Shown here piece after piece: positions 5,886 through 39,739 of a DNA stretch of 64,000 bases. How positions within the stretch are numbered: the first letter of the stretch is position 1; every line of letters starts with the position of its first letter. Source of the DNA: Escherichia phage vB_Eco_mar003J3; the sequence record NC_048203.1; one strand, written 5' to 3'. The notes under the pieces are model-generated. The model worked only from the letters and a program-made list of their open reading frames with translations, made no database searches and was not told the DNA's origin. Made by a program: the position numbers and the translations under genes.

Positions 5886-7943
5886 TTACCTTATATGGAT
5901 ATACCCACTATTTAGGTCTATCTTCATCTTGTAGTATGCTTCAGGGTTCCCTGATAACGCAGCATTTCTATCGTAGATTATATTAACACCGATTTGTGAT
6001 AAGAAGGCATTTCCTGCCACAATCTTATCCGCAGTAACAGTTCCATTAACAATCATATTGCCATGAAGAACCATTGCAGGGTTAATCCATCCAGCTCCGT
6101 TCCACTGACGGGTAAATGCTGTTTGTGGAGCATTACTGTTAAATTGTGTTAGAACATCGTATTTAACCGGAGGTTTTCCAAAGTTATTTTGAAAGAATGC
6201 GTTAGCTTGTCCATCATCCCAACCGCCTAATCCAGGAATACCCATGGAGTACATCCCAGGACCACGCTGTCCATCATGTCCTATAGTACCTTCAGTACCA
6301 CTCCATTGAACTACATCAGACCAGCTAGTACCTTCAAGAAGTTTGTTAGTAACTGGATCAAGTGTACCTGTAGTCGCATAGATATTTTGTGTCATATCTG
6401 TACGGTTAGGTGGAGTTTTTGACCAACCAGGAGGTGGATAATCTTGTTCTAGCGGTTTGGCCGGTAAAGATGTTGCTAACTTATAAACAAATACTGTTTG
6501 CTTACCTTGTAAACCAGTTCCAATATCTACGTCACCATTTGGTGTTCCAATCACTACACCACTAGAAATACGCAGAGTAGTACCATCATAACGTATCCAT
6601 TGTGTAGCATTACCAATGTCTAACTTAGCTTTGGCAGAGGTATTATCCATACCCATCCAAATACCAGAGTTATTATCCCCCCAGGATTTACCTTGAGTGT
6701 AAATTGCTGGGTTATCTTTACCAGACAAGTTAGTCATGATAAAGTTCGCAGCATTAATATCTCTAGTAATTACTTTACCATCAACGTTAACAACACGGTT
6801 TATAGGGTCAAAAGAAATAGGTGCTTTACCTTCTTCATCTAGCAGACCAATGTTAATAGCACCAGTAGCTGCATCAATTAGGAATGTTTGTCTCCAGATT
6901 TCCCCATCTTTCATGCTGCCTTTAATAAAGGCATAGTTAACATCAATACCCGTCTCATTGACAAAACTATTATCTAGAGGAGTATCTTCATTCAGAATAA
7001 ACGTTACAGGAGCTGACTCTGTTATATCTTGTTTACTTGGTCCCCAGGCAATTGATGATACCTTAAAAGTATGTTCAACTTTCCATGGGAATGATATAAT
7101 TGTTGCAGCTCTGGCAGCACCCACGTTTATCTTTTGAGCTTTAGCCCATCCGGTTTTAGCATATTCCTCGGAGTTTATGTAAGTAACCAAGAATTCACGA
7201 ACGTTAGCACCAGCACCACGTTCCCAGTCCCACTCAATTCTAACATCATATCGTTCTTTACCATCAGCAATTCGTGCAGCTTTAAAAACAATATCGATAG
7301 GTGCAGTAGGAGGAACAAAATTATAAGCTACAGTTAGAATATTAGTGAACTCATAGTACCCAGAAGAATCAACTGTAACACCATCAGGCATAGTTACTTG
7401 ACCAGATATTCTGATCTTATAATCTCCGATAGGAACTCCACCAAATTTAATAGTAGAACCTAAAGCCCCAATATAATATTTAGTCCATGGACTGTCTTCA
7501 GTGGCTGTACTTTTTAACTCAATAGTACAGTAGCTTGCTTCACCAGTTGTTTCCACAACAACTATTGGTGCGCCCACCCCAACATCCACAGGTTCTGACT
7601 CAGATCTTGCTGCAACAATTATTGGCTTCTCTTTTGTTTTAAAGTTAGTTTCATTAGAGAGGTTAATACCAATTTTTGCATTTAAAAGTTCTGAGTCAAT
7701 AATTGAGTCATAAAAAGCTCCCTGAACCTGATAGGTAGTTGAGGGAGTTAAGTTATTGATCATAACAAAGAAAGTGTCGATTCCAGTGAAATCTCTTCTA
7801 TCCACTTCTTCGCCAAGTTTAAGCCAGAATGATCTACCGATAACATCGTAGTCGGTATAGATAGAATGCTGGATATACGCCATAGTATATCCAGTCATAA
7901 TACTATTTAAGACCATCTTGGCTGGTGCATTATTCGAAATCAT
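5886..7943 (-). CDS. baseplate / central fibre protein (T5 pb4-like)
   Basis: 685 aa (T5 pb4 about 688 aa), synteny after hub protein. Confidence 0.65.
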
Positions 7944-10793
7944 TTAAATAGATGCCCAATCCACAGATTGCTCGCCATTATCACCTTCTGCTCTTATACG
8001 GAAGCGTAACTTCCTATTAATACCTAGAGCATCCTCGTTATGAAGAGCATAGTCTGCCTTATTGTATATCAGTAGATAATCGTAGACATACTGATCTTCA
8101 ATTCGTACACTTCTTAATAAACGATCTAGGTTATCGTAGATTTCGAGAGTGTAGAAGATTCCATCAATGATATCTTCTTCTGGAATTCTATCCCAGGCCA
8201 ACTTAACGTCTGGTCCTACAAACTCCGATACATCTCCTGAAGCTGTATTAGTAACTCTGAAGTTACTAACGACGCTTAAGTTTTTAGCAGAGTTAAGTTC
8301 TACTGATAGTGTTACTGGAGAACTTCGTCTACCATTAATATCTACAGCTCTAATCTCAAATACTGCTAAACCAGCAGGTTCTCCAATAATTTCTTGGATC
8401 ATTCGTAGATTTGGATTAGTTTCTAATTGCTGTACGATATAAGGATCAGCATGTCCAGAGTGAACGATGGAGTAATAAACAACGTTATTAGTTAAGCTAG
8501 GAAGCCAAGATAGCTCACCATTCTTACCAATAGATCCTACTTGTCCACCCGGTGTTGGTGTATACATAAAGTCTCTAGGAGGCAGTACGTTATTACTAAC
8601 ATCAGGGATATCGTTACCACTATTATCAACCTGCTCGGAGTTAATGAATACATCCTCACCGTACTCTTGCAGTGTAATATTAATCTTACCTTCTCTAGAG
8701 TTTTCAACTTCATCAACTAGGAAGTATTTCTTGTCCCAACCATAACGACCGTATGTAAAAGCAATCGGATCGTTAGGCTCAATGCCTATGAAATGATATG
8801 GTAATGAGAATGTGAGAGTTCGTGAGTAACGAGACTTTTTCAGTTCTCTATCTGCAAAGCTACGCGCAGTATAGTAGTTAGTGATGTTTGCAAAAGAAAG
8901 CTGAAGTTTTTTATCTAACCCTTTATCTTGCTCCTTAAATATAGAGTTAAAGAATGTAATGGAGTTAGTTTTCCAGCTTAATGCGGGATCTAGTATAGAG
9001 GCTTGTACTGAGTTGAATTTATTTCTACCAGTAGTATCTGACAATTCCAGATCACCATAGGTATCTAAGAAGTCAATCTCCAGTGGAGTATTCGAGAACT
9101 TCTCAACAGTTATTCTATACTGACCAGATAAGTTGTTGATAGCACCTCCATAAGACTCTATTAATCCCTGCACGTTTTTAAATACTGACTCAGAGGTATC
9201 GAGAATAGTATTCATTTGAACTATTTGTCTATTCTCTCCTACAGCATCAGTCCATCCAACGTATCTCCAGTAGGGTTGCCAAGAAACCTGATAGGATTCA
9301 TCAATGATATCCAGGATAGCTGCTTCTTGAATAAGTTGCTGGAGAGGGAACTGATCAATAGTGATATTAGCACCGTAGCGGTCAGAGGTTAGGTAGTCCA
9401 GAGTTTGCCAGATACCGTTTAAGCTAGTCTTATCAGCAGTTACTCTACCATCTGAATGGTAGATTTTAGTCTTCTTACCTTGAACTTCAGCACTAACTTC
9501 TGGAATTTCTGTTCTGTTTTCGTTAATAGTAAAGCGAACAATAGCATAAGCAGTATCTAACAGTTTATAACGAGAGTCCCAGTATTCCGGTCCATTCTCA
9601 TTCATGTTCTGTAGATAGAAACCTTTCTCTTTTGCAATGTTAACTAGAACATCCGCAGCAGATTGGTCTGCTCTACCATGGTAAGTCCAGATACGGATAT
9701 CACCATTACCATCATTATACCTATATTCCTGTCCATGAACAGAAGGTTCAGAGCTTGATTGACCAGAAGCAATACGTTGCATGGTATCTCCAGCTACTTT
9801 CTTAGTACCAAAGCAAGTACGAGACTTACTATCATTAGGATCAATACAGATCATTGGTACATCACCAAAGTAGAAATCTAGAAATCCATCAATCTCACCC
9901 TCACAGAATGCATACACTATATATACGATATTAGGGTTATGCAGCTCAGTATCTGCGAATACGGGGATTCCAGGAATTTTCTGAGTTCCATACACTACCG
10001 GGAGGAACTTAGCCGCTAAGTTAAAATCGATATCAACTTCCTTAGTCACAGTCTCATAGTATTTCTTCATGCTATAGCTTCTAGAAAGACCAAATAACTT
10101 TTTCTTAGACTGTAACTTGTAGCGTTCTTCCTGAACCTGATACTTAGCTAGAATAGAGATACTCTTATTAGCGTGGAAGAATCCATAGTCCTCTTGATAT
10201 TCAGGTCGCTTAGCGCCGTTAGATGGAACTAATTGGCCAGCAACAATCTCAAGTCCCCTATGGGCAGCATCATCTGTGAAACGTCCGTTTACTCTATCAA
10301 AGTCATAGAATTGATTTGAACAGTTCCATGTGATAGTAGATGTGCTAATTCCAGAAGTACCAATGTTATCCTTAATACCTCCACCAGTAATTTTACCACG
10401 AAAGTAAAGTAAAGGACCATTAGTGTCTGAATCTACAGGAAGAATATTGCCTTCTTCATCAATAACCGCTTGATGGATTGAGATAGACCTATCTAGGAAG
10501 GATACACCATTTTGGACTAGTTTTAATACTTCATCCTCAGCAGTACCTGTGATAGTAAAAGAAAGACTACCAATGGAAAGATCTCTATTTTGTTTATGTG
10601 TTGTTATAGACTTAACCTTACCGGATGTATAAAGAATACCATTATATCTTACATCTCTAAAATAATCTGTAAGATATATGTACGCAGAACTTGATCCGGT
10701 AGAGCTTGGCAATTCAAGAGTAATAAGGCATGCAGTTTTTATTTTATTATTGGTTCTTAGATACTCTCTTGCACTGTCAAGAATTTTCTTCAT
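7944..10793 (-). CDS. baseplate hub protein (T5 pb3-like)
   Basis: 949 aa, same length as T5 pb3; follows Dit gene with 4-nt overlap. Confidence 0.7.
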   Translation of the reverse strand: MKKILDSAREYLRTNNKIKTACLITLELPSSTGSSSAYIYLTDYFRDVRYNGILYTSGKVKSITTHKQNRDLSIGSLSFTITGTAEDEVLKLVQNGVSFLDRSISIHQAVIDEEGNILPVDSDTNGPLLYFRGKITGGGIKDNIGTSGISTSTITWNCSNQFYDFDRVNGRFTDDAAHRGLEIVAGQLVPSNGAKRPEYQEDYGFFHANKSISILAKYQVQEERYKLQSKKKLFGLSRSYSMKKYYETVTKEVDIDFNLAAKFLPVVYGTQKIPGIPVFADTELHNPNIVYIVYAFCEGEIDGFLDFYFGDVPMICIDPNDSKSRTCFGTKKVAGDTMQRIASGQSSSEPSVHGQEYRYNDGNGDIRIWTYHGRADQSAADVLVNIAKEKGFYLQNMNENGPEYWDSRYKLLDTAYAIVRFTINENRTEIPEVSAEVQGKKTKIYHSDGRVTADKTSLNGIWQTLDYLTSDRYGANITIDQFPLQQLIQEAAILDIIDESYQVSWQPYWRYVGWTDAVGENRQIVQMNTILDTSESVFKNVQGLIESYGGAINNLSGQYRITVEKFSNTPLEIDFLDTYGDLELSDTTGRNKFNSVQASILDPALSWKTNSITFFNSIFKEQDKGLDKKLQLSFANITNYYTARSFADRELKKSRYSRTLTFSLPYHFIGIEPNDPIAFTYGRYGWDKKYFLVDEVENSREGKINITLQEYGEDVFINSEQVDNSGNDIPDVSNNVLPPRDFMYTPTPGGQVGSIGKNGELSWLPSLTNNVVYYSIVHSGHADPYIVQQLETNPNLRMIQEIIGEPAGLAVFEIRAVDINGRRSSPVTLSVELNSAKNLSVVSNFRVTNTASGDVSEFVGPDVKLAWDRIPEEDIIDGIFYTLEIYDNLDRLLRSVRIEDQYVYDYLLIYNKADYALHNEDALGINRKLRFRIRAEGDNGEQSVDWASI

Positions 10794-29959: not shown

Positions 29960-30694
29960 TTAGGCAACTTTTAATTTATCAATGAATTGTTGCGGAGCGG
30001 TACTATAGTCTCCCCTTTCTTCCTCAGTCATACCCTGCCAGCACATTTCTAAGCGCTGGCAAAGATATTGATAATCATTATCATCATCTAACGATTCATC
30101 AATAAAGGTTTCACCGATCAATGCTACGCCGATTGATAGGATATCGTTAACGGCTTGGGCGTCCAGTGTTTTGAATCCAGCACTTGCCGCCACCGATAAT
30201 ACGCCTTTATGATCATCAATCATCGTAAAATCAGCGTTTGGATATAGCTGTTTAAATAGTTCAAAGTAATAGCTTTTGTATACAGCGTCTTTGCTGTGGT
30301 ATATTTCGCTAACCTTATCCGCTTCAAAGTATTTGTGTAATGTATCGCGGGAGAATACGCGGATATTGCTATTTCCGCGCCCTCGCAAGCCTTGTTTACG
30401 CAAATAAAAGTAATCGCTTTTAGACATAAGGCGCGCGGTACAAATAACATTTAAAGTATTTGCATCATTCATACATTGGCGCATATATTCAACCAACGGC
30501 AATAAAGAATCCTGCATAATTAAATCATGTTTACAGGCTTCGCGGGAATACTTATTTAAATTTAAATTCCCGTTATCATCAAAGCAAGGCGCTACACGAT
30601 GGAAAGAATTAATGATTGTGCCGTCCAGATCCCAAATCATGACGCGGGAAATATGCGGGAAATTATGGGTAATATTCGTTTTAACTTGATTCAT
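29960..30694 (-). CDS. dmp: HAD-family 5'-deoxynucleotidase (T5 Dmp-like)
   Basis: 244 aa; HAD motif I WDLDGT near N-terminus. Confidence 0.55.
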   Translation of the reverse strand: MNQVKTNITHNFPHISRVMIWDLDGTIINSFHRVAPCFDDNGNLNLNKYSREACKHDLIMQDSLLPLVEYMRQCMNDANTLNVICTARLMSKSDYFYLRKQGLRGRGNSNIRVFSRDTLHKYFEADKVSEIYHSKDAVYKSYYFELFKQLYPNADFTMIDDHKGVLSVAASAGFKTLDAQAVNDILSIGVALIGETFIDESLDDDNDYQYLCQRLEMCWQGMTEEERGDYSTAPQQFIDKLKVA

Positions 30695-31242: not shown

Positions 31243-32907
31243 TTAGGCAAAGAATTTGCCATTTTTGAAATCAATCAAGGTACGTTGACCGTTTGCATAT
31301 GTAATTAAATGCGTTTGCGTCCAGCTTGACGCGCCAACGTTGTAACCCATATCGAGACTACCAGCAACGCCAGCGGTATAAACGCCGCCGTATATACTAG
31401 CCGTGTGAGTGTGGCCCGTGTTGAGGCGTCCTAACTTTTTAAACTGTTTAGGATTGCCCCGACTGCCGTTAATGCCGTTGTGACCATGTACACCGCATTC
31501 AATTCCTGCAATCTTGAAAGATTGGTCAGTAGTCAGGAAAATAGCGTTAAATTCGCAACCTGCAACGTTTCTAAGCGCATAATCCAATACGTTAAAGGTA
31601 TCATCTTGTTTTGCAATAGCCGCATAAATCGCAGCGTTTAGGCTGTGATACAGTTCGGCGTTTGCGGGGTCGTCTTTAATGTTAGCGTTACGATCATCAA
31701 GCCAACGGGATAACGCCAAATCATGATTGGATTCCACGATGATTGTTTGAGAAAAATCGCGCTCCATTGACTCCAACACGCGACCGGTATCAATGAGATC
31801 GTCAATAACTTTATCACGTCCGGCGGCGTATTGTTTCGCAAGGAATACACCACTTGCGCGGTTGTGATGGTTACGCGATGTAAAATCATGCACATCATGA
31901 ATAAACTGATATTTCGGTTTAAGAATATCAAGCAAGCTATTTTCGCCCACCCATGATGCAACGGCGCATTCATCATCTAATTTTTCGGCGTGAATATCGC
32001 CATATTGCAAGCCTAGAACATGATCGGACGTTTCAAAACATCCGGTAGGCATAGCGCAAATATTCAAATCATAAAACATTCCGCTTTCATCCATTGTTTC
32101 AAGCTGGCGAACAAAAAATTCGCCGTCGTCGTCAAATTCTACCAACAAAGCGCCGTAATTATGCAGCGCCTCAGCTTTTTGACCTGCTTTCTGCTGAATA
32201 TAGTTTTTAAGTGTAGCCGTTCCGGTGGAGTACATACGGCGCACTACTTCACCTTTTAACGCTGGCACACTTTCAGCGGTAATTTTAGCGTGACCAATTG
32301 CCAGACCTTCAATATTTAAAGCCGTGGCGGTTTCTGCGAATCCTGAAAGCGGATAGTCTGCCGTTGGTAACACGTTAATTTCAGCCATGAAAGCAAAACG
32401 GCGATTATTTAAAAATACGTTTTTCTCGCAAATATATTTATTAAATGCGGGATCGTATTTAATGCCTTCGTTACCTTCTCCATTCTGGAAGCCGTTTTTA
32501 TTGTAAATGAATTTACTAACCAGCAATTCACCGCCGATATATTCAGCGAATTGCTCAAGCACTTTCAAAAAGTTTTTATGTGGGAAAGTATTATTTTGAA
32601 TCGACGTTAGAATAAAACGGCGACCGGATTTAACTTCCCACTGTTCCACGGTACTAGAAACAATCCCCGCCGCTTCTGGGCGATCATCATTTTTAATCGC
32701 CTTTTCAGCTTTTGCCGCTTTCGGTTTCGCTGGCTTATTTGCTTCCAGCCAGTCACAAATTGCGGTCGAATGTTTCGGCGTGTCATAAACAGCTTTTGAA
32801 ATATCGTCACAAACTTCCAATTTAGTAGCGCGTAAACGCTTGCCATAGAAATTAAAATCAGCGGCAAGTTTAGTGATCTGGGACTGTTTTTCTGCGGAAA
32901 TATTCAT
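31243..32907 (-). CDS. A1: pre-early metallophosphatase-fold protein (T5 A1-like)
   Basis: 554 aa (T5 A1 about 556 aa); calcineurin-like motifs GDIHAE, GHNG, GHTHTAS. Confidence 0.6.
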   Translation of the reverse strand: MNISAEKQSQITKLAADFNFYGKRLRATKLEVCDDISKAVYDTPKHSTAICDWLEANKPAKPKAAKAEKAIKNDDRPEAAGIVSSTVEQWEVKSGRRFILTSIQNNTFPHKNFLKVLEQFAEYIGGELLVSKFIYNKNGFQNGEGNEGIKYDPAFNKYICEKNVFLNNRRFAFMAEINVLPTADYPLSGFAETATALNIEGLAIGHAKITAESVPALKGEVVRRMYSTGTATLKNYIQQKAGQKAEALHNYGALLVEFDDDGEFFVRQLETMDESGMFYDLNICAMPTGCFETSDHVLGLQYGDIHAEKLDDECAVASWVGENSLLDILKPKYQFIHDVHDFTSRNHHNRASGVFLAKQYAAGRDKVIDDLIDTGRVLESMERDFSQTIIVESNHDLALSRWLDDRNANIKDDPANAELYHSLNAAIYAAIAKQDDTFNVLDYALRNVAGCEFNAIFLTTDQSFKIAGIECGVHGHNGINGSRGNPKQFKKLGRLNTGHTHTASIYGGVYTAGVAGSLDMGYNVGASSWTQTHLITYANGQRTLIDFKNGKFFA

Positions 32908-33260: not shown

Positions 33261-33695
33261 TTATTCGCCTGCGGCCTGTTTTACTTCATCGACAACGCCT
33301 AACAATTGCGCCATGGCTTCCAGCGTTTCCAGTTTTGCACTTTCCAAACTTGCCAGATCGTCGGCGTCTTTGATAATGCCTGAATCAATGGCGTGTTTAG
33401 CGATAACGCGCACATAGTGAGCTTTACGGATTGAGCTACCGCCGCCAACTTTGCGCGGCTTGTCGCTTTTCTGGTAGGCTTTTGCACTGGTCAATTTAGA
33501 ACGTACAGAGACAGGGGAAGCCGCGCCAACGGCGGCGGCGATTTCTTTTAAGCCGTCACTGTTAGCAAATTCAACGCCATTTTTTTCGATCATTTCAGAA
33601 TACAAAGAGACAGCTTTCTGCGTGTTTTCTTCATTCCAAGAGAATTTTGCGGCTTTTTCGGTTTTAACGTTAGACATAGTAAATACTCCGTTCAA
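33261..33695 (-). CDS. pre-early hypothetical protein
   Basis: 144 aa ORF in A1 operon direction. Confidence 0.5.
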   Translation of the reverse strand: MNGVFTMSNVKTEKAAKFSWNEENTQKAVSLYSEMIEKNGVEFANSDGLKEIAAAVGAASPVSVRSKLTSAKAYQKSDKPRKVGGGSSIRKAHYVRVIAKHAIDSGIIKDADDLASLESAKLETLEAMAQLLGVVDEVKQAAGE

Positions 33696-34808: not shown

Positions 34809-34835
34809 TTAGAATGCGTTACAGAGCGTTTTAGA
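34809..34835. repeat. 27-bp element TTAGAATGCGTTACAGAGCGTTTTAGA, copy 1
   Basis: identical to 38232..38258. Confidence 0.9.
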
Positions 34836-35165
34836 CCCTGTTAATAACTTATACAAAAAGCAAAAATGAAATTTAATGAGTTATCCACTTGATTTTTCAA
34901 AAAAGTATTTTCTGCTGTTATTTTTCATTGACAAATAAGTCTGGACGTGTATCAGATCGTTAGCAGACTAATAATCGCTAGGATGATAATCACGCTGGTG
35001 GATTGTAACGGCTGAAATCATTAGCAGACTATTAATCAAGGAAAATCCTATTAGCCAACTAACTATTTCATAATATATAATATACATATAAATTAATGAG
35101 AAATAATAAATATGAGAAACTATCGGGCTAAGTGAGAACCACTATCATTTAACTTATACCCAAAG

Positions 35166-35174
35166 TTATCCACA
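35166..35174 (+). promoter_or_regulatory. DnaA box TTATCCACA
   Basis: perfect 9-mer consensus. Confidence 0.6.
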
Positions 35175-35214
35175 GCACAAAATAACTTGACGCAATAGGC
35201 GACGTTTTGGCGAC

Positions 35215-35223
35215 TTATCCACA
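35215..35223 (+). promoter_or_regulatory. DnaA box TTATCCACA
   Basis: perfect 9-mer consensus, 49 bp from first box. Confidence 0.6.
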
Positions 35224-35243
35224 GACTTATATACAGGTTATCC

Positions 35244-35263
35244 TACTGTATAAATATACAGGG
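35244..35263. promoter_or_regulatory. LexA (SOS) box-like palindrome followed by TAGAAT -10-like hexamer
   Basis: TACTGTATAAATATACAGGG: CTGT-N8-ACAG core, 18/20 to TACTGTATATATATACAGTA. Confidence 0.5.
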
Positions 35264-35510
35264 TAGAATGGTAGCAGTAACAACCGCAATCAAATTTAAG
35301 CGGCCTAGAACGCGCTACACGGCGTTTTCTCACTGCTGCCCTTATTATAATAAAGCCTTGTGTACACTTACAGAGTGCTAGAAATAGAAAACGCGCGGAT
35401 ATCATAAAAACAGGCAGTAAGCAAGGAATAAAAAACCTTTTCTTTTTCCTTGCCCCTAGCGAACAAATATCTATATCATTCACTCACCGATTAACGAGGG
35501 AGACAAAGAA

Positions 35511-36536
35511 ATGTCTACTGTAAGAATTGCAGTACCAGCAAACGCCACTATTATTAAGGGTAGTTTGCGCAACCTGCTAGACGGATCAAGTCTAGCAAGC
35601 CTACAGCTAGACGGATCAAGTCTAGCAAGCCTACAACATACGGCGGCAATGGTTGAAAAGATTCACGATGAAATTTTAGATAATAATGATACTCATTATT
35701 GTTTAAGTGATTTCACACAATTACTAGACCCTACCCGCGTTCTAGTGCTTTACAACCGTGACTATCACATCATGCGAAATCAGCGGGGAAGAGATATTGA
35801 TTTTATCATTGTAGGTCACGACGAAAAAAGCTATATTGCCCGTGGTTACAATGTACAAGAAAAAGAAATGGTTTTCGCTACTCGCGTAAATGGTATTAAT
35901 TCCAGCGATGTAGAAGATTTACTATCTAGTATTTGTGGCGAATTGACAAGCGCCATTAAACGTGCTGATAGTTACGCAATCGAAACAACTGGCGTATTGT
36001 GTTTTGGACGCGCTAGAGGTAACATGTTGATCCCTAACGATTATTTAGAGTATGGGAATGAATCAAACGTTGCAAACGCTGGATTTACACTTTTACCGCT
36101 TGACAATGTAACAAAACAGGCTGTACAATCTCAAACTTCAAGCGCAAATGCGCAAACTACTGAAAATAAAGGAAATATTATGTCTAAAGTATCTTCTATC
36201 GTTGCTGCTAATAAATCCGCCGTTGTAAACGCTGCTAAACTGGAAGTGGGTAAAATTGCACTGACTCAAGTCACAAAAGTAGCGGCGAAAAAAGCACCGT
36301 TTATGATTAAAGGGTATATTGATACGCCGATTGGTCGTGTAGTGATCGCTAACCTGCTGAGTGTAGCGGTTGACCAGTACGCCCCGACTAATGCGAAAGC
36401 TAAAGCGGTAGCAGGCGCGGCAATGGAAGCGGCAATGTTGGAAATGGTACAAAGTTTCAATATTGCTGAAATGATCGATGAAATGGTAAAAGGTATTGAC
36501 ATTTCAACCTTTACCCAAAATGCTGAAAGCGAGTAA
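35511..36536 (+). CDS. hypothetical protein with internal tandem duplication and Ala/Val-rich C-terminal region
   Basis: 341 aa; RBS GAGGGAG; rho-independent terminator downstream. Confidence 0.6.
   Translation: MSTVRIAVPANATIIKGSLRNLLDGSSLASLQLDGSSLASLQHTAAMVEKIHDEILDNNDTHYCLSDFTQLLDPTRVLVLYNRDYHIMRNQRGRDIDFIIVGHDEKSYIARGYNVQEKEMVFATRVNGINSSDVEDLLSSICGELTSAIKRADSYAIETTGVLCFGRARGNMLIPNDYLEYGNESNVANAGFTLLPLDNVTKQAVQSQTSSANAQTTENKGNIMSKVSSIVAANKSAVVNAAKLEVGKIALTQVTKVAAKKAPFMIKGYIDTPIGRVVIANLLSVAVDQYAPTNAKAKAVAGAAMEAAMLEMVQSFNIAEMIDEMVKGIDISTFTQNAESE
35577..35636 (+). repeat. tandem 30-bp duplication (29/30 identical) inside CDS
   Basis: ctagacggatcaagtctagcaagcctaca[g/a] twice; encodes LDGSSLASLQ x2. 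Confidence 0.9.
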
Positions 36537-36564
36537 TAATTAGTCTAATGTAAAGTTTTGTAAA

Positions 36565-36590
36565 GGTCGCCCTAATCGGCGGCCTTTTTT
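36565..36590 (+). terminator. rho-independent terminator
   Basis: ggtcgcc-ctaatc-ggcggcc followed by TTTTTT. Confidence 0.65.
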
Positions 36591-36654
36591 GTTATAATGC
36601 CTTTACACCGAAACGGTGGATTGAAAATTTTCCCCGATTTCTAGGAGGCGTTAA

Positions 36655-36882
36655 ATGGTACATTCATCATCTTCTGCAATTTTTAATGGTATGGAATGGG
36701 TATCCGTTCCCACTATTGTAAGCGTTATGGTTTCGGAGTTTGGGATTGGTAAAACTTATGTTACCATTCAGGAGCTTTACGACAATGACAAGATTGATCA
36801 GCAAACAGCCGGATTTTTGCTGGATGAATTGAAAGCTAACCACTGCACCAAAAAGCAAGCGGCAAAAATTGTTTTAATGTAA
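36655..36882 (+). CDS. hypothetical small protein
   Basis: 75 aa; strong RBS CTAGGAGG 7 nt upstream. Confidence 0.55.
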   Translation: MVHSSSSAIFNGMEWVSVPTIVSVMVSEFGIGKTYVTIQELYDNDKIDQQTAGFLLDELKANHCTKKQAAKIVLM

Positions 36883-36930
36883 TTAATAACGGGGCGTTAC
36901 TTTCGCCCCTAATTTCTAGGAGCTAATAAA

Positions 36931-37080
36931 ATGGTTATTTTTCGATCAGTTCTAGCAGGTATCTTGGGCGCTATTTTATCGTTGTTTGCAATAGCTTTCG
37001 GTGTTCATGCCGTTATTATCGGCGCGGGTATCGCGGGGTTTTCTTACCTGTTAGGCTGTATGACTGGTAAAGGGGGATAA
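36931..37080 (+). CDS. 49-aa hydrophobic glycine-zipper membrane peptide (not in ORF track)
   Basis: ATG at 36931 preceded by TCTAGGAGC; MVIFRSVLAGILGAILSLFAIAFGVHAVIIGAGIAGFSYLLGCMTGKGG; stop 37078..37080. Confidence 0.5.
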   Translation: MVIFRSVLAGILGAILSLFAIAFGVHAVIIGAGIAGFSYLLGCMTGKGG

Positions 37081-37082
37081 AA

Positions 37083-37295
37083 ATGTTAAAAAATGTAAGC
37101 CTTGCCCGTTCTAAAGGTTTTAAGCTGGTGGATGTTAACACGTTCGAGCGTCCAGATTGTAAAATCGAATATGTAGCACGCAACAAAAACGCGTTTCGTG
37201 TTACAGAAAAGAAATTTGACAAGCGCGGCAATTTGGTAGCCGAAACGGTTAAACACTTTGCCACCTTTTACGCTGCGTTTCGGGGAGTGTTATAA
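37083..37295 (+). CDS. hypothetical small protein
   Basis: 70 aa, starts 2 nt after the membrane peptide stop. Confidence 0.5.
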   Translation: MLKNVSLARSKGFKLVDVNTFERPDCKIEYVARNKNAFRVTEKKFDKRGNLVAETVKHFATFYAAFRGVL

Positions 37296-37296
37296 A

Positions 37297-37641
37297 ATGG
37301 TAATTTACGAGGGCAACCGATTTGTAACTAATTGCCGTCCGGCATTATTAGCAAACTATTTAAATCAGCTTTCACCAGTTTATAAAGGCGTGGTTAATAT
37401 CTATGAGGGCAAAGCACATTATAAAATTTCTGCCGTTGTCGCCCGTGAACTAGCGTTTCAATTTTTAACTTTTGGGTCTTGTGACGTTCAGGTTATGGGG
37501 GAAGCGTTAATAGCGGAAAATGAAAATGAATTTATTGACATTTTCCGCAAAGTATGTACAGAGCGCCTGATTATGAAAGGCGCGTATATTCAATCAACCG
37601 CTGAAAGTATCGAAACAGCGTTTCGAAAGGTGGCGCAATGA
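37297..37641 (+). CDS. hypothetical protein (likely start at internal ATG 37297 rather than 37258)
   Basis: RBS GGGGAG upstream of 37297; stop of upstream gene at 37293..37295. Confidence 0.5.
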   Translation: MVIYEGNRFVTNCRPALLANYLNQLSPVYKGVVNIYEGKAHYKISAVVARELAFQFLTFGSCDVQVMGEALIAENENEFIDIFRKVCTERLIMKGAYIQSTAESIETAFRKVAQ

Positions 37642-37823
37642 CTAGAAATGAAGCTGTTAAAGCTATGTTAGAAGGTAAAAAAGTAACTCATCGTTATTTT
37701 TCCATGCATGAATATTTATTCATGAAATATGAAGTGATCACCACGGAGGATGGTTATAAATTTAATCATGAATTTTATAGCCGTGAAATGTTTAATGATG
37801 GCTGGCAGCTTTATTATGAATAG
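37638..37823 (+). CDS. hypothetical small protein
   Basis: 61 aa; ATGA start/stop overlap with upstream gene. Confidence 0.5.
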   Translation: MTRNEAVKAMLEGKKVTHRYFSMHEYLFMKYEVITTEDGYKFNHEFYSREMFNDGWQLYYE

Positions 37824-37949
37824 CTGGTGGCGAAAAACACAAAGCCATAAATCTAATAATACCGCTGGGAAACATTCCCAGCGTTTACGATTTGGTAATG
37901 GCTTCACAATGATATTGATAATCATTCTCATTCTAGGAGCAATGGCGTT

Positions 37950-38144
37950 ATGAGTGATAAAATTGTTGTAACTAAAACTACTGTTACCGTTGATACTTTC
38001 TTTGTGCCTGATACGCTGGAAAATCGGCAAGCGGTGGAGCGTGGCGATTATGATAAAGTGATTTATGATAACGATGGTTACTATCAACATTTGGTAGACT
38101 CCTACGGCGAAAGCGAAAAGATCACACATCGACTACCAGACTAA
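37950..38144 (+). CDS. hypothetical small protein
   Basis: 64 aa; RBS TAGGAGC upstream; terminator downstream. Confidence 0.5.
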   Translation: MSDKIVVTKTTVTVDTFFVPDTLENRQAVERGDYDKVIYDNDGYYQHLVDSYGESEKITHRLPD

Positions 38145-38150
38145 TAATAA

Positions 38151-38180
38151 CGGGGCGCAACTATCGGCCCCGTCTTTTCT
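38151..38180 (+). terminator. rho-independent terminator ending the plus-strand cassette
   Basis: cggggc-gcaactatcg-gccccg then TCTTTTCT. Confidence 0.65.
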
Positions 38181-38231
38181 GGCCTTCCTCAAATTTCCCC
38201 TTATTAAAATACCTCCGCCAAAAATAAACGC

Positions 38232-38258
38232 GTTAGAATGCGTTACAGAGCGTTTTAG
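38232..38258. repeat. 27-bp element TTAGAATGCGTTACAGAGCGTTTTAGA, copy 2
   Basis: identical to 34809..34835. Confidence 0.9.
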
Positions 38259-38289
38259 AGCTATATTAGAGTTATTCACTACGCAGGAA

Positions 38290-38309
38290 TACTGTATAAA
38301 TATACAGTA
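38290..38309. promoter_or_regulatory. LexA (SOS) box-like palindrome followed by TAGAAT
   Basis: TACTGTATAAATATACAGTA: 19/20 to E. coli LexA consensus. Confidence 0.5.
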
Positions 38310-38390
38310 GAATAACCTGTTGATAAGTCTGTTGATAACGCCCCAAAATCGCTAGGATTTTGTCAAGTCAAATCGTGCTGTTAATAAACC

Positions 38391-38399
38391 TGTGGATAA
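38391..38399 (-). promoter_or_regulatory. DnaA box TTATCCACA (reverse orientation)
   Basis: plus strand tgtggataa. Confidence 0.55.
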
Positions 38400-38430
38400 C
38401 TTAAATAACAGTGTTTCTCACTTCGCTTTG

Positions 38431-38575
38431 TAAATGCGAGTCATTCTCATTATCATTAGCGTTTCCCTTCCTAAATGCAAATCATTCTCATTCGTATTCC
38501 GGTAGTCAAATGATAACTGTTCTCATTCGCATTCAACTTCTCAAATGCGAATCATTCTCATTATCATTCGCATTT
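38431..38575. repeat. three copies of AAATGC(G/A)A(G/A)TCATTCTCATT motif; third copy is a hairpin AAATGCGAAT...ATTCGCATTT
   Basis: copies at 38431..38459, 38471..38498, 38541..38575. Confidence 0.8.
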
Positions 38576-38606
38576 CGGCAGGCAGGGCAATTTGCCCTGC
38601 GCTTTT

Positions 38607-39207
38607 GTGCAAATCCGACATTTGCCCCCACGGATTACGTGCCAGTGTGCATGTGCGAATCCGACAATTTTTGGTAGTGTGCAAATCCGATGGGAAATAT
38701 TTTTTATATGTGCGAATCCGACAATGAATTTTCCTAAAAACTCCAGCAATCCGCAACTGCGATGCAATCCAGCTGGATTTACTAGAATATGTGCAAAACC
38801 GACAAGTGTTAAGGTGTGCGAATCCGACAAGATTTTTGTGACTTCGATTGGAGGGTGTGTGATTGTGTGGGTTTGGGGAGAAGTGCGAATCCGATGAGAT
38901 TTTGGGAGGAACTACGGAAGGAGCAGCGGTGATGGTGCTTTAGCACCGATTTGCTGCATTTTTGGGGATAATGCGGGATGTTTTGGCTAGAATTGAGATT
39001 AGTGGAGATAAAGCGAAATTTTATTAGCAAAATGGGGCAAAATCGCTTGACAAGTGAAAATTCCTGTGGCTCTAAAAACTCAGGCAATCATGGGCCTTCG
39101 GCCCGAAATAATGCTGCTATTTTCAGTGTTCCTAAAAACTTTGGAGACTCCTATCAATGTGCAAATCCGACCATAAATTTCTAGAAACATAATGTGCAAA
39201 TCCGATA
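38607..39207. repeat. array of 9 direct copies of 14-bp motif GTGCRAATCCGAYN with irregular spacing (injection-stop-like region)
   Basis: copies at 38607, 38653, 38679, 38710, 38791 (variant), 38816, 38883, 39159, 39194; no ORF with RBS; also CCTAAAAACT x3 and AACCGCCCT x3 nearby (39071..39300). Confidence 0.8.
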
Positions 39208-39739
39208 GCAATTTCCAGAAATGTGTTTTGGAAAAATGTCTCCTAGAAATAACCGCCCTCCCTATAACCGCCCTGTATAGGAAACCGCCCTAGGATATGT
39301 AACGTTGGAGAGAAACTGCCCTAGAATGCGTGAGAAACAGATTTAAAGTTTAGTGTAAACTCTAGAGTTAATGCTCAACTATTCCTAGAAACTTAGGAGT
39401 CTACTAGAAAGTGTTGTGCCATCCTAGCAGATGAGCGGCAACCGGTGTATCATCTTGAACACAAATATTGCCTTTAAATATTATAAGGTAAATAAAAGTT
39501 AATATACCCCCATTTCATGAGAGTTAGCCCCTCTAGGCGCGTGCGATTTGATACATCCTCCTGAGTCTCGGGGAGGAAGAACAATTGACGAGAACCTGCA
39601 AGCAGAACCGTCATCAAGTATTTTCCTACGAGGAATGATGTAAATCTACGGCCTAGAGGTAAAAACAAGTTGATGTTTTTAATCTATGAGATTATTATAA
39701 CATGCAGCTCAAATAATGTCAAGAAGATTTTGCTAACGT

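What the first reader, a model, noticed from the sequence alone, without database searches (positions are those of the whole stretch)
34809..38313. Plus-strand gene cassette in the pre-early region flanked by duplicated regulatory modules with near-consensus LexA boxes
Upstream (34.4-35.5 kb) and downstream (38.15-38.4 kb) of the plus-strand cassette both carry the same three elements: an identical 27-bp motif TTAGAATGCGTTACAGAGCGTTTTAGA (34809..34835 and 38232..38258), a CTGT-N8-ACAG palindrome that matches the E. coli SOS box at 18/20 and 19/20 positions (35244..35263 and 38290..38309), each followed by TAGAAT, and perfect DnaA boxes. An SOS-box-regulated promoter in a strictly lytic T5-like phage would be unexpected; it could couple a subset of pre-early genes to host DNA damage. 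Alternatively these are binding sites for a phage regulator that happen to mimic the LexA site.
Basis: partly seen in the sequence, partly recalled or inferred. Interest (0 to 1): 0.7.

Follow-up and report, generated by a model that had tools for sequence, protein, structure and literature searches.

The report
Conserved host LexA boxes in T5-like phages
Two near-perfect binding sites for the bacterial DNA-damage repressor LexA sit next to the known DnaA boxes at both ends of a pre-early gene cassette in this T5-like lytic phage, are conserved across the whole phage family, and put a testable host factor at the edge of the long-unexplained T5 injection-stop region.

Summary
CTGTATAAATATACAG occurs exactly twice in 64 kb, at 35246-35261 and 38292-38307. 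As 20-mers the sites match the LexA consensus at 17/20 and 19/20; chance expectation is about zero. The window is an EPS7/T5-like phage, and the region is its terminal-repeat pre-early (first-step-transfer) DNA.

The "duplicated modules" are the known T5 inverted repeats IRC-spacer-IRD and IRD'-spacer-IRC', which carry paired DnaA boxes. The two palindromes are the inner tips of that 135-bp inverted repeat, and the distal one is T5 "palindrome D".

What appears to be new is that these palindromes are LexA-type SOS boxes. They are the only such sites in the whole T5 genome. They keep their position and their spacing to a DnaA box in Klebsiella, Proteus, Aeromonas and Vibrio relatives whose A1 proteins are only 34-74% identical. 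They vary only at LexA-tolerated positions, with no compensatory changes.

No paper in the searchable library links LexA to T5-like phages.

The characterised promoter lies about 190 bp downstream of the proximal box, the distal box follows the cassette terminator, and no promoter geometry over the boxes is conserved.

The most likely account is that these are host-LexA operators forming LexA-DnaA protein-DNA barriers that bracket the cassette and mark the left edge of the injection-stop region. Their function is inferred, not shown.

The parts
34809..34835 (+). 27-mer direct repeat, copy 1 (TTAGAATGCGTTACAGAGCGTTTTAGA), followed by a DnaA-like box TGTTAATAA at 34839-34847
   Evidence: Exact match; repeat family D6; DnaA-like box.
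35127..35261 (.). Left arm of the 135-bp inverted repeat, equivalent to T5 IRC-spacer-IRD. It carries DnaA boxes at 35166-35174 and 35215-35223 and a variant at 35227-35235.
   Evidence: Inverted repeat I1, 75% complementary; DnaA boxes; T5 annotation of IRC and IRD.
35244..35263 (.). Proximal LexA-type SOS box TACTGTATAAATATACAGGG (17/20 to consensus, HI 3.25). It forms the inner tip of the left inverted-repeat arm.
   Evidence: Conserved in most type-1 T5-like loci and in Klebsiella, Proteus, Aeromonas and Vibrio 234P1 relatives.
35305..35331 (+). Degenerate copy of the 27-mer (CTAGAACGCGCTACACGGCGTTTTCTC), equivalent to T5 inverted repeat B'
   Evidence: 70% identity; T5 IRB' annotation.
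35450..35479 (+). Cassette promoter TTGCCC-18-TATCAT, homologue of T5P4, the characterised promoter upstream of T5 gene 011. It does not overlap a LexA box.
35511..38144 (+). Rightward pre-early gene cassette of 7 ORFs: 35511-36536, 36655-36882, 36931-37080, 37083-37295, 37297-37641, 37638-37823 and 37950-38144. It includes the homologue of the Ung-dependent abasic-site nicking protein (37083-37295).
   Evidence: ORF list; PHROG matches.
38150..38178 (+). Terminator-like hairpin plus T-run at the end of the cassette, equivalent to T5 palindrome C/terminator
   Evidence: Sequence; T5 annotation.
38233..38259 (+). 27-mer direct repeat, exact copy 2
38290..38309 (.). Distal LexA-type SOS box TACTGTATAAATATACAGTA (19/20 to consensus, HI 0.66). 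It equals T5 'palindrome D' and forms the inner tip of the right inverted-repeat arm. It differs by 1 nt from the E. coli tisB operator used in LexA-binding experiments.
   Evidence: Conserved in every T5-like lineage sampled.
38292..38426 (.). Right arm of the inverted repeat, equivalent to T5 IRD'-spacer-IRC'. It carries DnaA-type boxes at 38318-38326, 38330-38338, 38379-38387 and 38391-38399.
   Evidence: Davison, bioRxiv 10.1101/866236.
38415..38576 (+). Three 51-nt DRC-like repeats with Fur-box-like cores (…AATGCGAATCATTCTCATTATCATT…), part of the injection-stop region
   Evidence: Repeat families D3 and D4; Fur-consensus scans.
38606..39205 (+). Eight DRD-like repeats TGTGCRAAWCCGA, forming the right part of the injection-stop repeat region
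   Evidence: T5 DRD annotation.

Best explanation
The two palindromes are genuine, high-affinity operators for the host SOS repressor LexA. They are built into the cassette-facing tips of the conserved inverted repeats that also carry paired DnaA boxes. Because they lie in first-step-transfer DNA, LexA (and DnaA) present in an undamaged cell would occupy them within seconds of DNA entry.

I propose that the resulting LexA-DnaA nucleoprotein complexes act as barriers or operators that bracket the rightward pre-early cassette. The universally conserved distal one (T5 palindrome D) also forms the left edge of the injection-stop region. Occupancy would therefore report the host's SOS state to the phage.

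Any transcriptional effect is more likely silencing of weak promoters embedded in the inverted repeats, or insulation against read-through, than control of the main cassette promoter.

Shown here: the sequence identity to LexA operators, their uniqueness in the genome, family-wide positional conservation, the fixed spacing to a DnaA box, and a LexA-like substitution pattern.
Inferred: that LexA actually binds.
Speculative: what the binding does.
For: 1. Match to LexA operators. The sites match the consensus at 19/20 and 17/20, with HI 0.66 and 3.25, as good as the strongest E. coli boxes in my matrix. The distal box differs by one base, towards consensus, from the tisB operator TACTGTATAAATAAACAGTA used in LexA binding studies (PMC3159453). 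A Proteus-phage relative (L049) carries exactly that 20-mer.

2. Not chance. None of 60 simulated 64-kb sequences reached HI <= 4. In the complete 121,752-bp T5 genome the only sites with HI < 8.8 are these two in each terminal repeat, at 6135 and 9330 plus their right-repeat copies.

3. Conservation. The distal box is found in 36 of the 37 close IMG/VR loci, all that extend far enough to cover its position; 31 of them also carry the proximal box. Sites are also found in lineages whose A1 proteins are 74%, 66-69%, 43-44% and 31-35% identical: Klebsiella, Proteus, Aeromonas, three Vibrio genera and a marine metagenome contig. Each 14-25 kb locus has 1-3 sites, always in the non-coding DNA that flanks the opposite-strand cassette. 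About 0.02 sites with HI <= 7 would be expected per 20 kb.

4. Fixed spacing to a DnaA box. In the enterobacterial, Aeromonas and marine-contig relatives a DnaA box starts at +28 or -29 from the 20-mer start; the Proteus and Vibrio sites have DnaA boxes nearby at other offsets.

5. Conservation islands. In alignments of 38 (distal) and 35 (proximal) distinct modules, CTG and CAG are invariant while the flanks drift.

6. Substitution pattern. Changes fall at positions that LexA tolerates: CTGG/CCAG variants, positions 5-6 of each arm, and the central 4 bp. Thirteen of 26 variants break the palindrome and none is compensated, which argues for half-site recognition by a protein rather than a hairpin.

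7. Both conserved motif types in the module, TTATCCACA and CTGT-N8-ACAG, are host-protein sites whose specificity is shared by all these gammaproteobacterial hosts (established knowledge).
Against: - No binding or expression data exist for these sites.
- The boxes do not overlap the characterised cassette promoter. No promoter over them is conserved, which is unusual for a classical SOS operator.
- The proximal module is absent from some natural relatives (L014, L016/17, L020; the Vibrio phages). By coordinates it is removed in the viable T5 mutant lacking hegG-017, so at least that copy is dispensable.
- From general laboratory knowledge, not tested here: T5 grows on recA1 strains, so LexA cleavage cannot be essential.
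- All known hosts of the family share one LexA motif, so covariation between the phage site and the host's motif could not be tested.
- A2, an essential phage DNA-binding protein, has a conserved helix-turn-helix-like segment and an unknown target.
The site logo is partly circular, because the sites were selected with that same matrix.
Confidence: 0.6

Rival explanations
1. The palindrome is the operator of a phage-encoded dimeric DNA-binding protein, most obviously A2, which is essential for second-step transfer. Its resemblance to the LexA box is either coincidental or deliberate mimicry or competition.
For: - A2 homologues occur in all these phages at 36-63% identity to the window's A2. They share a conserved helix-turn-helix-like segment containing invariant S, V-R and K-L residues (S-x3-V-R-x-K-L).
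- A2 is described as a DNA-binding protein needed for second-step transfer, with no known target (bioRxiv 10.64898/2026.04.02.716235).
- The boxes lie at the edge of the injection-stop region, not at a promoter.
Against: - A protein that has diverged to about 36% identity would have to keep a specificity matching the host LexA consensus at up to 19/20 positions, including the weakly informative flanks, and tolerate the same variants (CTGG/CCAG).
- A2 shows no sequence or fold similarity to the LexA DNA-binding domain or to any characterised family. There is no Pfam or PDB hit. The single-sequence model (pLDDT 69.5) shows only generic three-helix resemblance, with Foldseek E > 0.7.
- Other conserved repeats (the CTAGAACGC arrays, DRC, DRD) are equally good candidate A2 targets.
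Confidence: 0.17
2. The boxes are classical SOS operators repressing a promoter. Candidates are a second promoter upstream of the cassette or outward- or inward-facing promoters whose -10 element lies inside the palindrome. Part of the pre-early programme would then be induced by DNA damage.
For: - Weak sigma-70-like arrangements overlap the boxes. One is TTATCA-16-TATATT on the minus strand at 38326->38299, using the DnaA-type box as -35. TTAACA-16-TATATT and TTATTC-17-TATATT occur in many relatives.
- The cassette encodes a protein that nicks DNA at abasic sites.
- T5 degrades host DNA early in infection, which could lower LexA levels (inference).
Against: - The best candidate promoter differs from phage to phage in strand, spacing and hexamers.
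- LexA-compatible substitutions destroy the candidate -10 in some lineages, for example the CTGG variants in Klebsiella phages.
- The asymmetric centre flips between close relatives.
- The characterised cassette promoter is about 190 bp away, and the distal box sits behind a terminator.
Confidence: 0.15
3. The palindrome is a structural or enzymatic DNA signal: a hairpin or cruciform, or the cleavage site of an A1/A2 'restriction-like' activity as in Davison's model. It would not be a host-protein site.
For: - It is a perfect palindrome at the tip of a long inverted repeat.
- The single strand folds better than shuffled controls (-6.2 kcal/mol, z = -4.6).
- Davison lists palindrome D among candidate cleavage sites (bioRxiv 10.1101/866236).
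Against: - Half of the natural variants break the symmetry and none is compensated.
- The stem is short and AT-rich, with no U/T-run, so it is not terminator-like.
- The model does not explain why the sequence equals the LexA consensus at the non-pairing flanks and the centre.
Confidence: 0.06
4. The match to the LexA consensus is a chance result of AT-rich repeat DNA.
For: The region is repeat-rich and AT-rich.
Against: - None of 60 simulations reached HI <= 4.
- These are the only such sites in 121 kb of T5.
- The sites are syntenic in lineages that are otherwise unalignable in this region.
Confidence: 0.02

Closest known systems
E. coli-type LexA operators (SOS boxes), e.g. the tisB, umuDC and sulA operators
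   Same: They share the 16-bp CTGT-N8-ACAG palindrome with an AT-rich centre and TA flanks. The distal site is 1 nt from the tisB operator. Predicted affinity is in the range of the tightest chromosomal boxes. The pattern of tolerated variants is the same.
   Different: The sites are not positioned over an identifiable promoter. They lie at the tips of a 135-bp inverted repeat next to paired DnaA boxes, on the DNA of an obligately lytic phage. No binding or induction data exist.
T5 injection-stop-signal repeats: palindrome D, IRD/IRD', IRC/IRC' and paired DnaA boxes (Heusterspreute 1987 as cited by Davison; the annotated AY587007 record, Davison's reference 5; Davison 2020 bioRxiv 10.1101/866236)
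   Same: These are the same elements at the same syntenic positions. The distal box equals T5 palindrome D (9330-9349). The proximal box is the right end of IRD (6112-6152). The DnaA boxes and the 52-bp spacer are as described.
   Different: The published descriptions treat palindrome D as an unassigned palindrome or a possible cleavage site. The texts I could read name only DnaA as a site-specific host ligand (IHF and Fis are mentioned only as possible bending proteins). LexA and SOS are not mentioned in Davison 2020, nor in any T5-like paper in the library.
LexA-controlled switches of temperate or episomal phages (GIL01 promoter P1, PMC4551915; CTXphi and coliphage 186 tum from general knowledge)
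   Same: A phage genome carries host LexA boxes, so the SOS state of the cell is read directly by the phage.
   Different: In those phages the boxes overlap defined promoters and govern the lysogeny-to-lysis switch. Here the phage has no lysogenic state and no promoter overlap is evident.

Membership tests
LexA operator (gammaproteobacterial SOS box) | 16-bp CTGT-N8-ACAG inverted repeat with an AT-rich centre and a close match to the 20-bp consensus TACTGTATATATATACAGTA | tested here: met
   Matches of 19/20 and 17/20. Both sites carry the identical 16-mer CTGTATAAATATACAG.
LexA operator (gammaproteobacterial SOS box) | Low heterology index (functional E. coli sites are generally below about 12-15) | tested here: met
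None of 60 simulations reached HI <= 4. HI concept as described in PMC2994835.
LexA operator (gammaproteobacterial SOS box) | Overlaps or immediately adjoins the promoter of the regulated gene | tested here: not met
   The characterised cassette promoter (35450-35479) lies about 190 bp away. The distal box follows the terminator. No promoter geometry over the boxes is conserved.
LexA operator (gammaproteobacterial SOS box) | Bound by LexA in vitro or in vivo | not testable with these tools
   Indirect only: the distal site is one base from the experimentally bound tisB operator, and a relative carries the identical 20-mer.
LexA operator (gammaproteobacterial SOS box) | Downstream expression induced by DNA damage in a recA/lexA-dependent way | not testable with these tools
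   No transcript data for T5-like phages in lexA or recA backgrounds were found.
T5 injection-stop-region repeats (palindrome D / IRD-IRD') | Located at the inner ends of the inverted repeats IRC-spacer-IRD and IRD'-spacer-IRC', which flank the rightward pre-early cassette in the terminal repeat | tested here: met
   Inverted-repeat arms 35127-35261 and 38292-38426. T5 palindrome D is at 9330-9349 and IRD at 6112-6152.
T5 injection-stop-region repeats (palindrome D / IRD-IRD') | Paired DnaA or DnaA-like boxes, 3 bp apart, in each arm | tested here: met
   Pairs at 35215/35227, 38318/38330 and 38379/38391, as described by Davison.
Rho-independent terminator | GC-rich stem followed by a T-run | tested here: not met
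   The stem is AT-rich and is followed by GAATAACC. The site is not listed by the terminator scan.
Operator of a phage-encoded regulator (A2) | Specific binding by the phage protein | not testable with these tools
   A2 has a conserved helix-turn-helix-like motif but no similarity to LexA or to any known family.

The most novel reading that the evidence does not exclude
The last ~350 bp of first-step-transfer DNA may be a landing pad for host global regulators: the distal LexA box, four DnaA-type boxes and the Fur-box-like DRC repeats. Their occupancy would report DNA damage, replication state and iron status. The T5 family would use this read-out as a checkpoint that tunes the pause and resumption of genome injection. 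In that case the long-sought injection-stop signal is, at least in part, a host-transcription-factor array.
Probability: 0.12. Interest if true: 0.9.

Novelty: new variant of a known kind. Interest (0 to 1): 0.66.

Why it matters
The two-step DNA injection of T5 has been unexplained since the 1960s, and its cis-acting stop signal has never been dissected. As of 2026 the literature I could read describes it only as repeats, palindromes and DnaA boxes.

Recognising that its first palindrome is a consensus LexA operator, conserved from Escherichia to Vibrio phages and locked in spacing to a DnaA box, gives a specific host protein to test. The host mutants (lexA(Def), lexA(Ind-), recA) and point mutations needed are standard.

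It would also be a clear case of an obligately lytic phage family carrying SOS boxes, which suggests that virulent phages read the host's DNA-damage state.

T5-like phages are widely used for Salmonella and E. coli biocontrol. An SOS link would therefore bear on combining them with SOS-inducing antibiotics.

Tried and rejected
1. Covariation of the phage site with host LexA motifs. A1 homologues in Sphingobium phage Lacusarx and Shewanella phage 1/40 sit among replication genes, with no T5-like terminal-repeat organisation, and other distant A1 carriers (L053-L058, L061) have no boxes. All true family members infect Gammaproteobacteria, which share one LexA motif, so the test is not possible.

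2. A conserved promoter over the boxes. Scoring sigma-70 candidates in 38 and 35 distinct modules gave no consistent arrangement.

3. A2 as a LexA-domain mimic. There was no Pfam or PDB sequence match, and only weak, non-significant fold matches from a medium-confidence single-sequence model.

4. Hairpin or terminator reading. Rejected because there are no compensatory changes.

5. Locating the promoter I recalled as P-H207. It gave no match, so my recollection of that sequence may be wrong.

6. Davison's 2015 review is not held in the library, so I cannot exclude an earlier remark about LexA there. Davison's 2020 text has none.

7. DnaA-box enrichment over the whole window. The relaxed consensus is not above chance window-wide (8 matches against 7.6 expected). 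The signal lies in the clustering of perfect boxes within the modules.

Full report
**What the window is**

The finding region shares 88-96% DNA identity with Epseptimavirus and other T5-like phages, among them vB_EcoS_Ace, GRNsp8, SP76 and EPS7. In phage records that start at the physical left end it maps to about 4.6-10 kb.

The neighbouring minus-strand ORFs are homologues of three T5 pre-early genes:
- A1 (31243-32907; tblastn hits annotated A1/DNA transfer protein).
- The A2-type DNA-binding protein (33261-33695; PHROG 1725; aligned with annotated A2 proteins).
- A dmp-like gene (29960-30694).

Late structural genes fill positions 1-28 kb. The window is therefore a permuted assembly in which the collapsed terminal repeat follows the right end of the unique region.

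**Check of the observation**

- The 27-mer is exact at 34809-34835 and 38233-38259. No matches are expected by chance.
- CTGT-N8-ACAG occurs only twice in 64 kb, both times as CTGTATAAATATACAG.
- The 20-mers match the classical LexA consensus at 17/20 (35244-35263) and 19/20 (38290-38309).
That equals or betters the tightest chromosomal boxes in the same matrix. The next best site in the window scores about 9.
- None of 60 first-order Markov simulations of the window produced a site with HI <= 4.
- TAGAAT follows both boxes, and three perfect TTATCCACA boxes lie in the modules.

**Anatomy**

The repeat finder shows a 135-nt inverted repeat with arms at 35127-35261 and 38292-38426 (75% complementary). 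Its inner ends are exactly the two palindromes. Each arm carries two pairs of DnaA-type boxes, except that the outer pair of the left arm is represented only by the single perfect box at 35166-35174.

This is the structure annotated in T5 (GenBank AY587007) as IRC and IRD at 6022-6152 and IRD' and IRC' at 9332-9462. The distal box is annotated there simply as "palindrome D" (9330-9349), and the proximal one is the right end of IRD. Davison's comparison of 25 T5-like phages describes these inverted repeats, their constant 52-bp spacer and the eight DnaA boxes. He proposes membrane-bound DnaA as the cause of the injection stop (bioRxiv 10.1101/866236).

The "duplicated regulatory modules with DnaA boxes" are therefore already known. 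The 27-mer belongs to a family of four direct copies (34809, 35305, 38233, 39321). Unlike the LexA/DnaA part, it is not inverted.

**What appears to be new**

Davison's 2020 text contains no occurrence of LexA or SOS. The T5 GenBank annotations carry no such feature. No paper in the searchable library combines T5, T5-like phages, Tequintavirus, Epseptimavirus or Demerecviridae with LexA in a relevant way. [quoted passage not shown] Davison's 2015 review was not available to me, and I did not try to retrieve the earlier primary papers.

**Evidence that the palindromes are LexA sites under selection**

1. The distal box differs by one base, towards consensus, from the E. coli tisB operator TACTGTATAAATAAACAGTA used in LexA-DNA binding experiments (PMC3159453). 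A Proteus-phage relative carries exactly that 20-mer (L049).
2. In the complete T5 genome the only sites with HI below 8.8 are these two in each terminal repeat.
3. The distal box is present in 36 of the 37 close IMG/VR loci, all that extend far enough to cover its position; 31 of them also carry the proximal box.
4. Sites are present in Klebsiella phages (A1 74% identical), a 66-69% lineage, Proteus phages (43-44%), Aeromonas AhSzw-1, Vibrio phages of three genera and a marine contig (31-35%).
5. Each of those loci has 1-3 sites, and they always lie in the non-coding DNA that brackets the opposite-strand cassette. The flanks are otherwise unalignable between these lineages.
6. In the enterobacterial, Aeromonas and marine-contig relatives a DnaA box starts at +28 or -29 from the 20-mer start; the Proteus and Vibrio sites have DnaA boxes nearby at other offsets.
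7. In alignments of 38 and 35 distinct modules, CTG and CAG are invariant islands.
8. Variation is confined to positions that LexA tolerates: CTGG/CCAG, arm positions 5-6, and the central four bases. Thirteen of 26 variants break the symmetry and none is compensated. This argues against selection for a hairpin or cruciform and for half-site recognition by a protein.

The agreement between the phage-site logo and the E. coli logo (r = 0.87) is partly circular, because the sites were picked with that matrix. The non-circular evidence is their rarity, their synteny and their fixed spacing.

**What they probably do not do**

The promoter upstream of the first cassette gene is annotated as T5P4 and is listed as one of three experimentally characterised pre-early promoters. 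It corresponds to TTGCCC-18-TATCAT at 35450-35479, about 190 bp downstream of the proximal box.

The distal box lies behind the cassette terminator (38150-38178). Candidate sigma-70 arrangements that use the palindrome as -10 exist (for example TTATCA-16-TATATT, minus strand). However, their strand, spacing and hexamers change from phage to phage. Some LexA-compatible substitutions destroy them. The asymmetric centre (AAAT or ATTT) flips between close relatives.

The proximal module is also dispensable:
- It is missing in some natural relatives.
- Davison notes lineages that lack IRC/IRD.
- A T5 mutant deleted from hegG to gene 017 is viable, with smaller plaques. By coordinates that deletion spans the proximal module; this is my inference, as I could not see the deletion end-points.

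The distal box is the universally conserved one.

**Most likely mechanism**

This part is inferred. LexA in an undamaged cell should occupy both sites as soon as the first-step DNA enters, next to DnaA bound to the adjacent boxes. I propose that these LexA-DnaA complexes are protein-DNA barriers or operators that bracket the accessory cassette, and that the distal one forms the left edge of the injection-stop region.

In T5 the distal box lies about 270-330 bp left of the calculated shear point (9618) and of the 7.9% nick (9661-9668). Its occupancy would make that region sensitive to the host's SOS state.

I put about 0.6 on "selected host-LexA site". I place much less on any particular downstream effect. 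LexA cleavage cannot be essential for growth if, as general laboratory experience suggests, T5 plates on recA1 strains; I did not test this.

**Rivals**

- A phage protein, especially A2, could be the real ligand. A2 is essential for second-step transfer, binds DNA and has a conserved helix-turn-helix-like segment.
  - It has no detectable similarity to the LexA DNA-binding domain or to any characterised family.
  - A protein that has diverged to about 36% identity would need to keep a specificity indistinguishable from LexA's.
- A classical promoter-operator arrangement, a structural or cleavage signal, and chance are progressively less likely, for the reasons above.

**Noticed alongside**

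The DRC-like repeats just right of the distal module (38415-38576) have cores that match the Fur consensus at 14-15 of 19 positions. Better matches lie at 37911-37929 (17/19) and inside the dmp-like gene at 30064-30082 (18/19).

In T5, six of the seven places genome-wide with <= 4 mismatches lie in the 10-kb terminal repeat. In enterobacterial relatives such sites are about 20-fold denser in the 450 bp outside the distal LexA box than elsewhere in the loci.

Together with the LexA and DnaA boxes, this suggests that the end of the first-step DNA is an array of host global-regulator sites. The idea is low-probability but would be important if true, and it can be tested with standard host mutants.

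**Verdict**

The modules and DnaA boxes are already described. The LexA identity of palindrome D and of the IRD tip, and its family-wide conservation, appear to be undescribed and are well supported by sequence evidence. The proposed promoter control is not supported. The function remains to be shown experimentally.

Noticed in passing
window 38415-38576; also 37911-37935 and 30064-30088: There are Fur-box-like sequences matching GATAATGATAATCATTATC at 14-18 of 19 positions. They lie in the DRC-like repeats right of the distal LexA/DnaA module, upstream of the last cassette ORF, and inside the dmp-like gene. In T5, 6 of the 7 such places genome-wide lie in the terminal repeat. They are about 20-fold enriched just outside the distal LexA box in enterobacterial relatives.
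   Followed up: partly
window 34809-34835, 35305-35331, 38233-38259, 39321-39347: The 27-mer is a family of four direct (not inverted) copies with TAGA-type units phased about 10 bp apart. Related CTAGAACGC arrays lie on the cassette side of the LexA boxes in Klebsiella, Proteus and Vibrio phages. The copy at 35305 corresponds to T5 'inverted repeat B''. The binding factor is unknown.
   Followed up: partly
window 35576-35635: An exact 30-bp tandem duplication (GCTAGACGGATCAAGTCTAGCAAGCCTACA, twice) lies inside the first cassette ORF. It is an in-frame 10-residue duplication.
   Followed up: no
window 39694-39722 (minus strand): A perfect sigma-70 consensus (TTGACA-17-TATAAT with an upstream TG) points leftward into the ORF-free DRD repeat region, just beyond the likely end of the terminal repeat. 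Its product is unknown.
   Followed up: no
window 38606-39205: Eight DRD-like repeats (TGTGCRAAWCCGA) lie here. One of them (38790-38798) fits the relaxed DnaA-box consensus and the others are one base away from it.
   Followed up: no
window 35252-35255 and 38298-38301; loci L001-L049: The asymmetric 4-bp centre of the LexA boxes (AAAT or ATTT) flips orientation between closely related phages and between the two copies in one genome. This is compatible with gene conversion between the inverted-repeat arms, or with an absence of strand constraint.
   Followed up: partly
window 33261-33695 (minus strand): The A2-like protein shares a conserved helix-turn-helix-like segment (invariant S, V-R and K-L residues; also W20 and Y32) with homologues from Klebsiella, Proteus, Aeromonas and Vibrio phages. 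It has no Pfam or PDB relative. Its DNA target is unknown.
   Followed up: partly
window 1-29900: Late structural genes on the minus strand, including ORFs of 1235, 949 and 880 aa, run straight into the start of the terminal-repeat genes. The record is therefore a permuted assembly with the terminal repeat collapsed to one copy.
   Followed up: no
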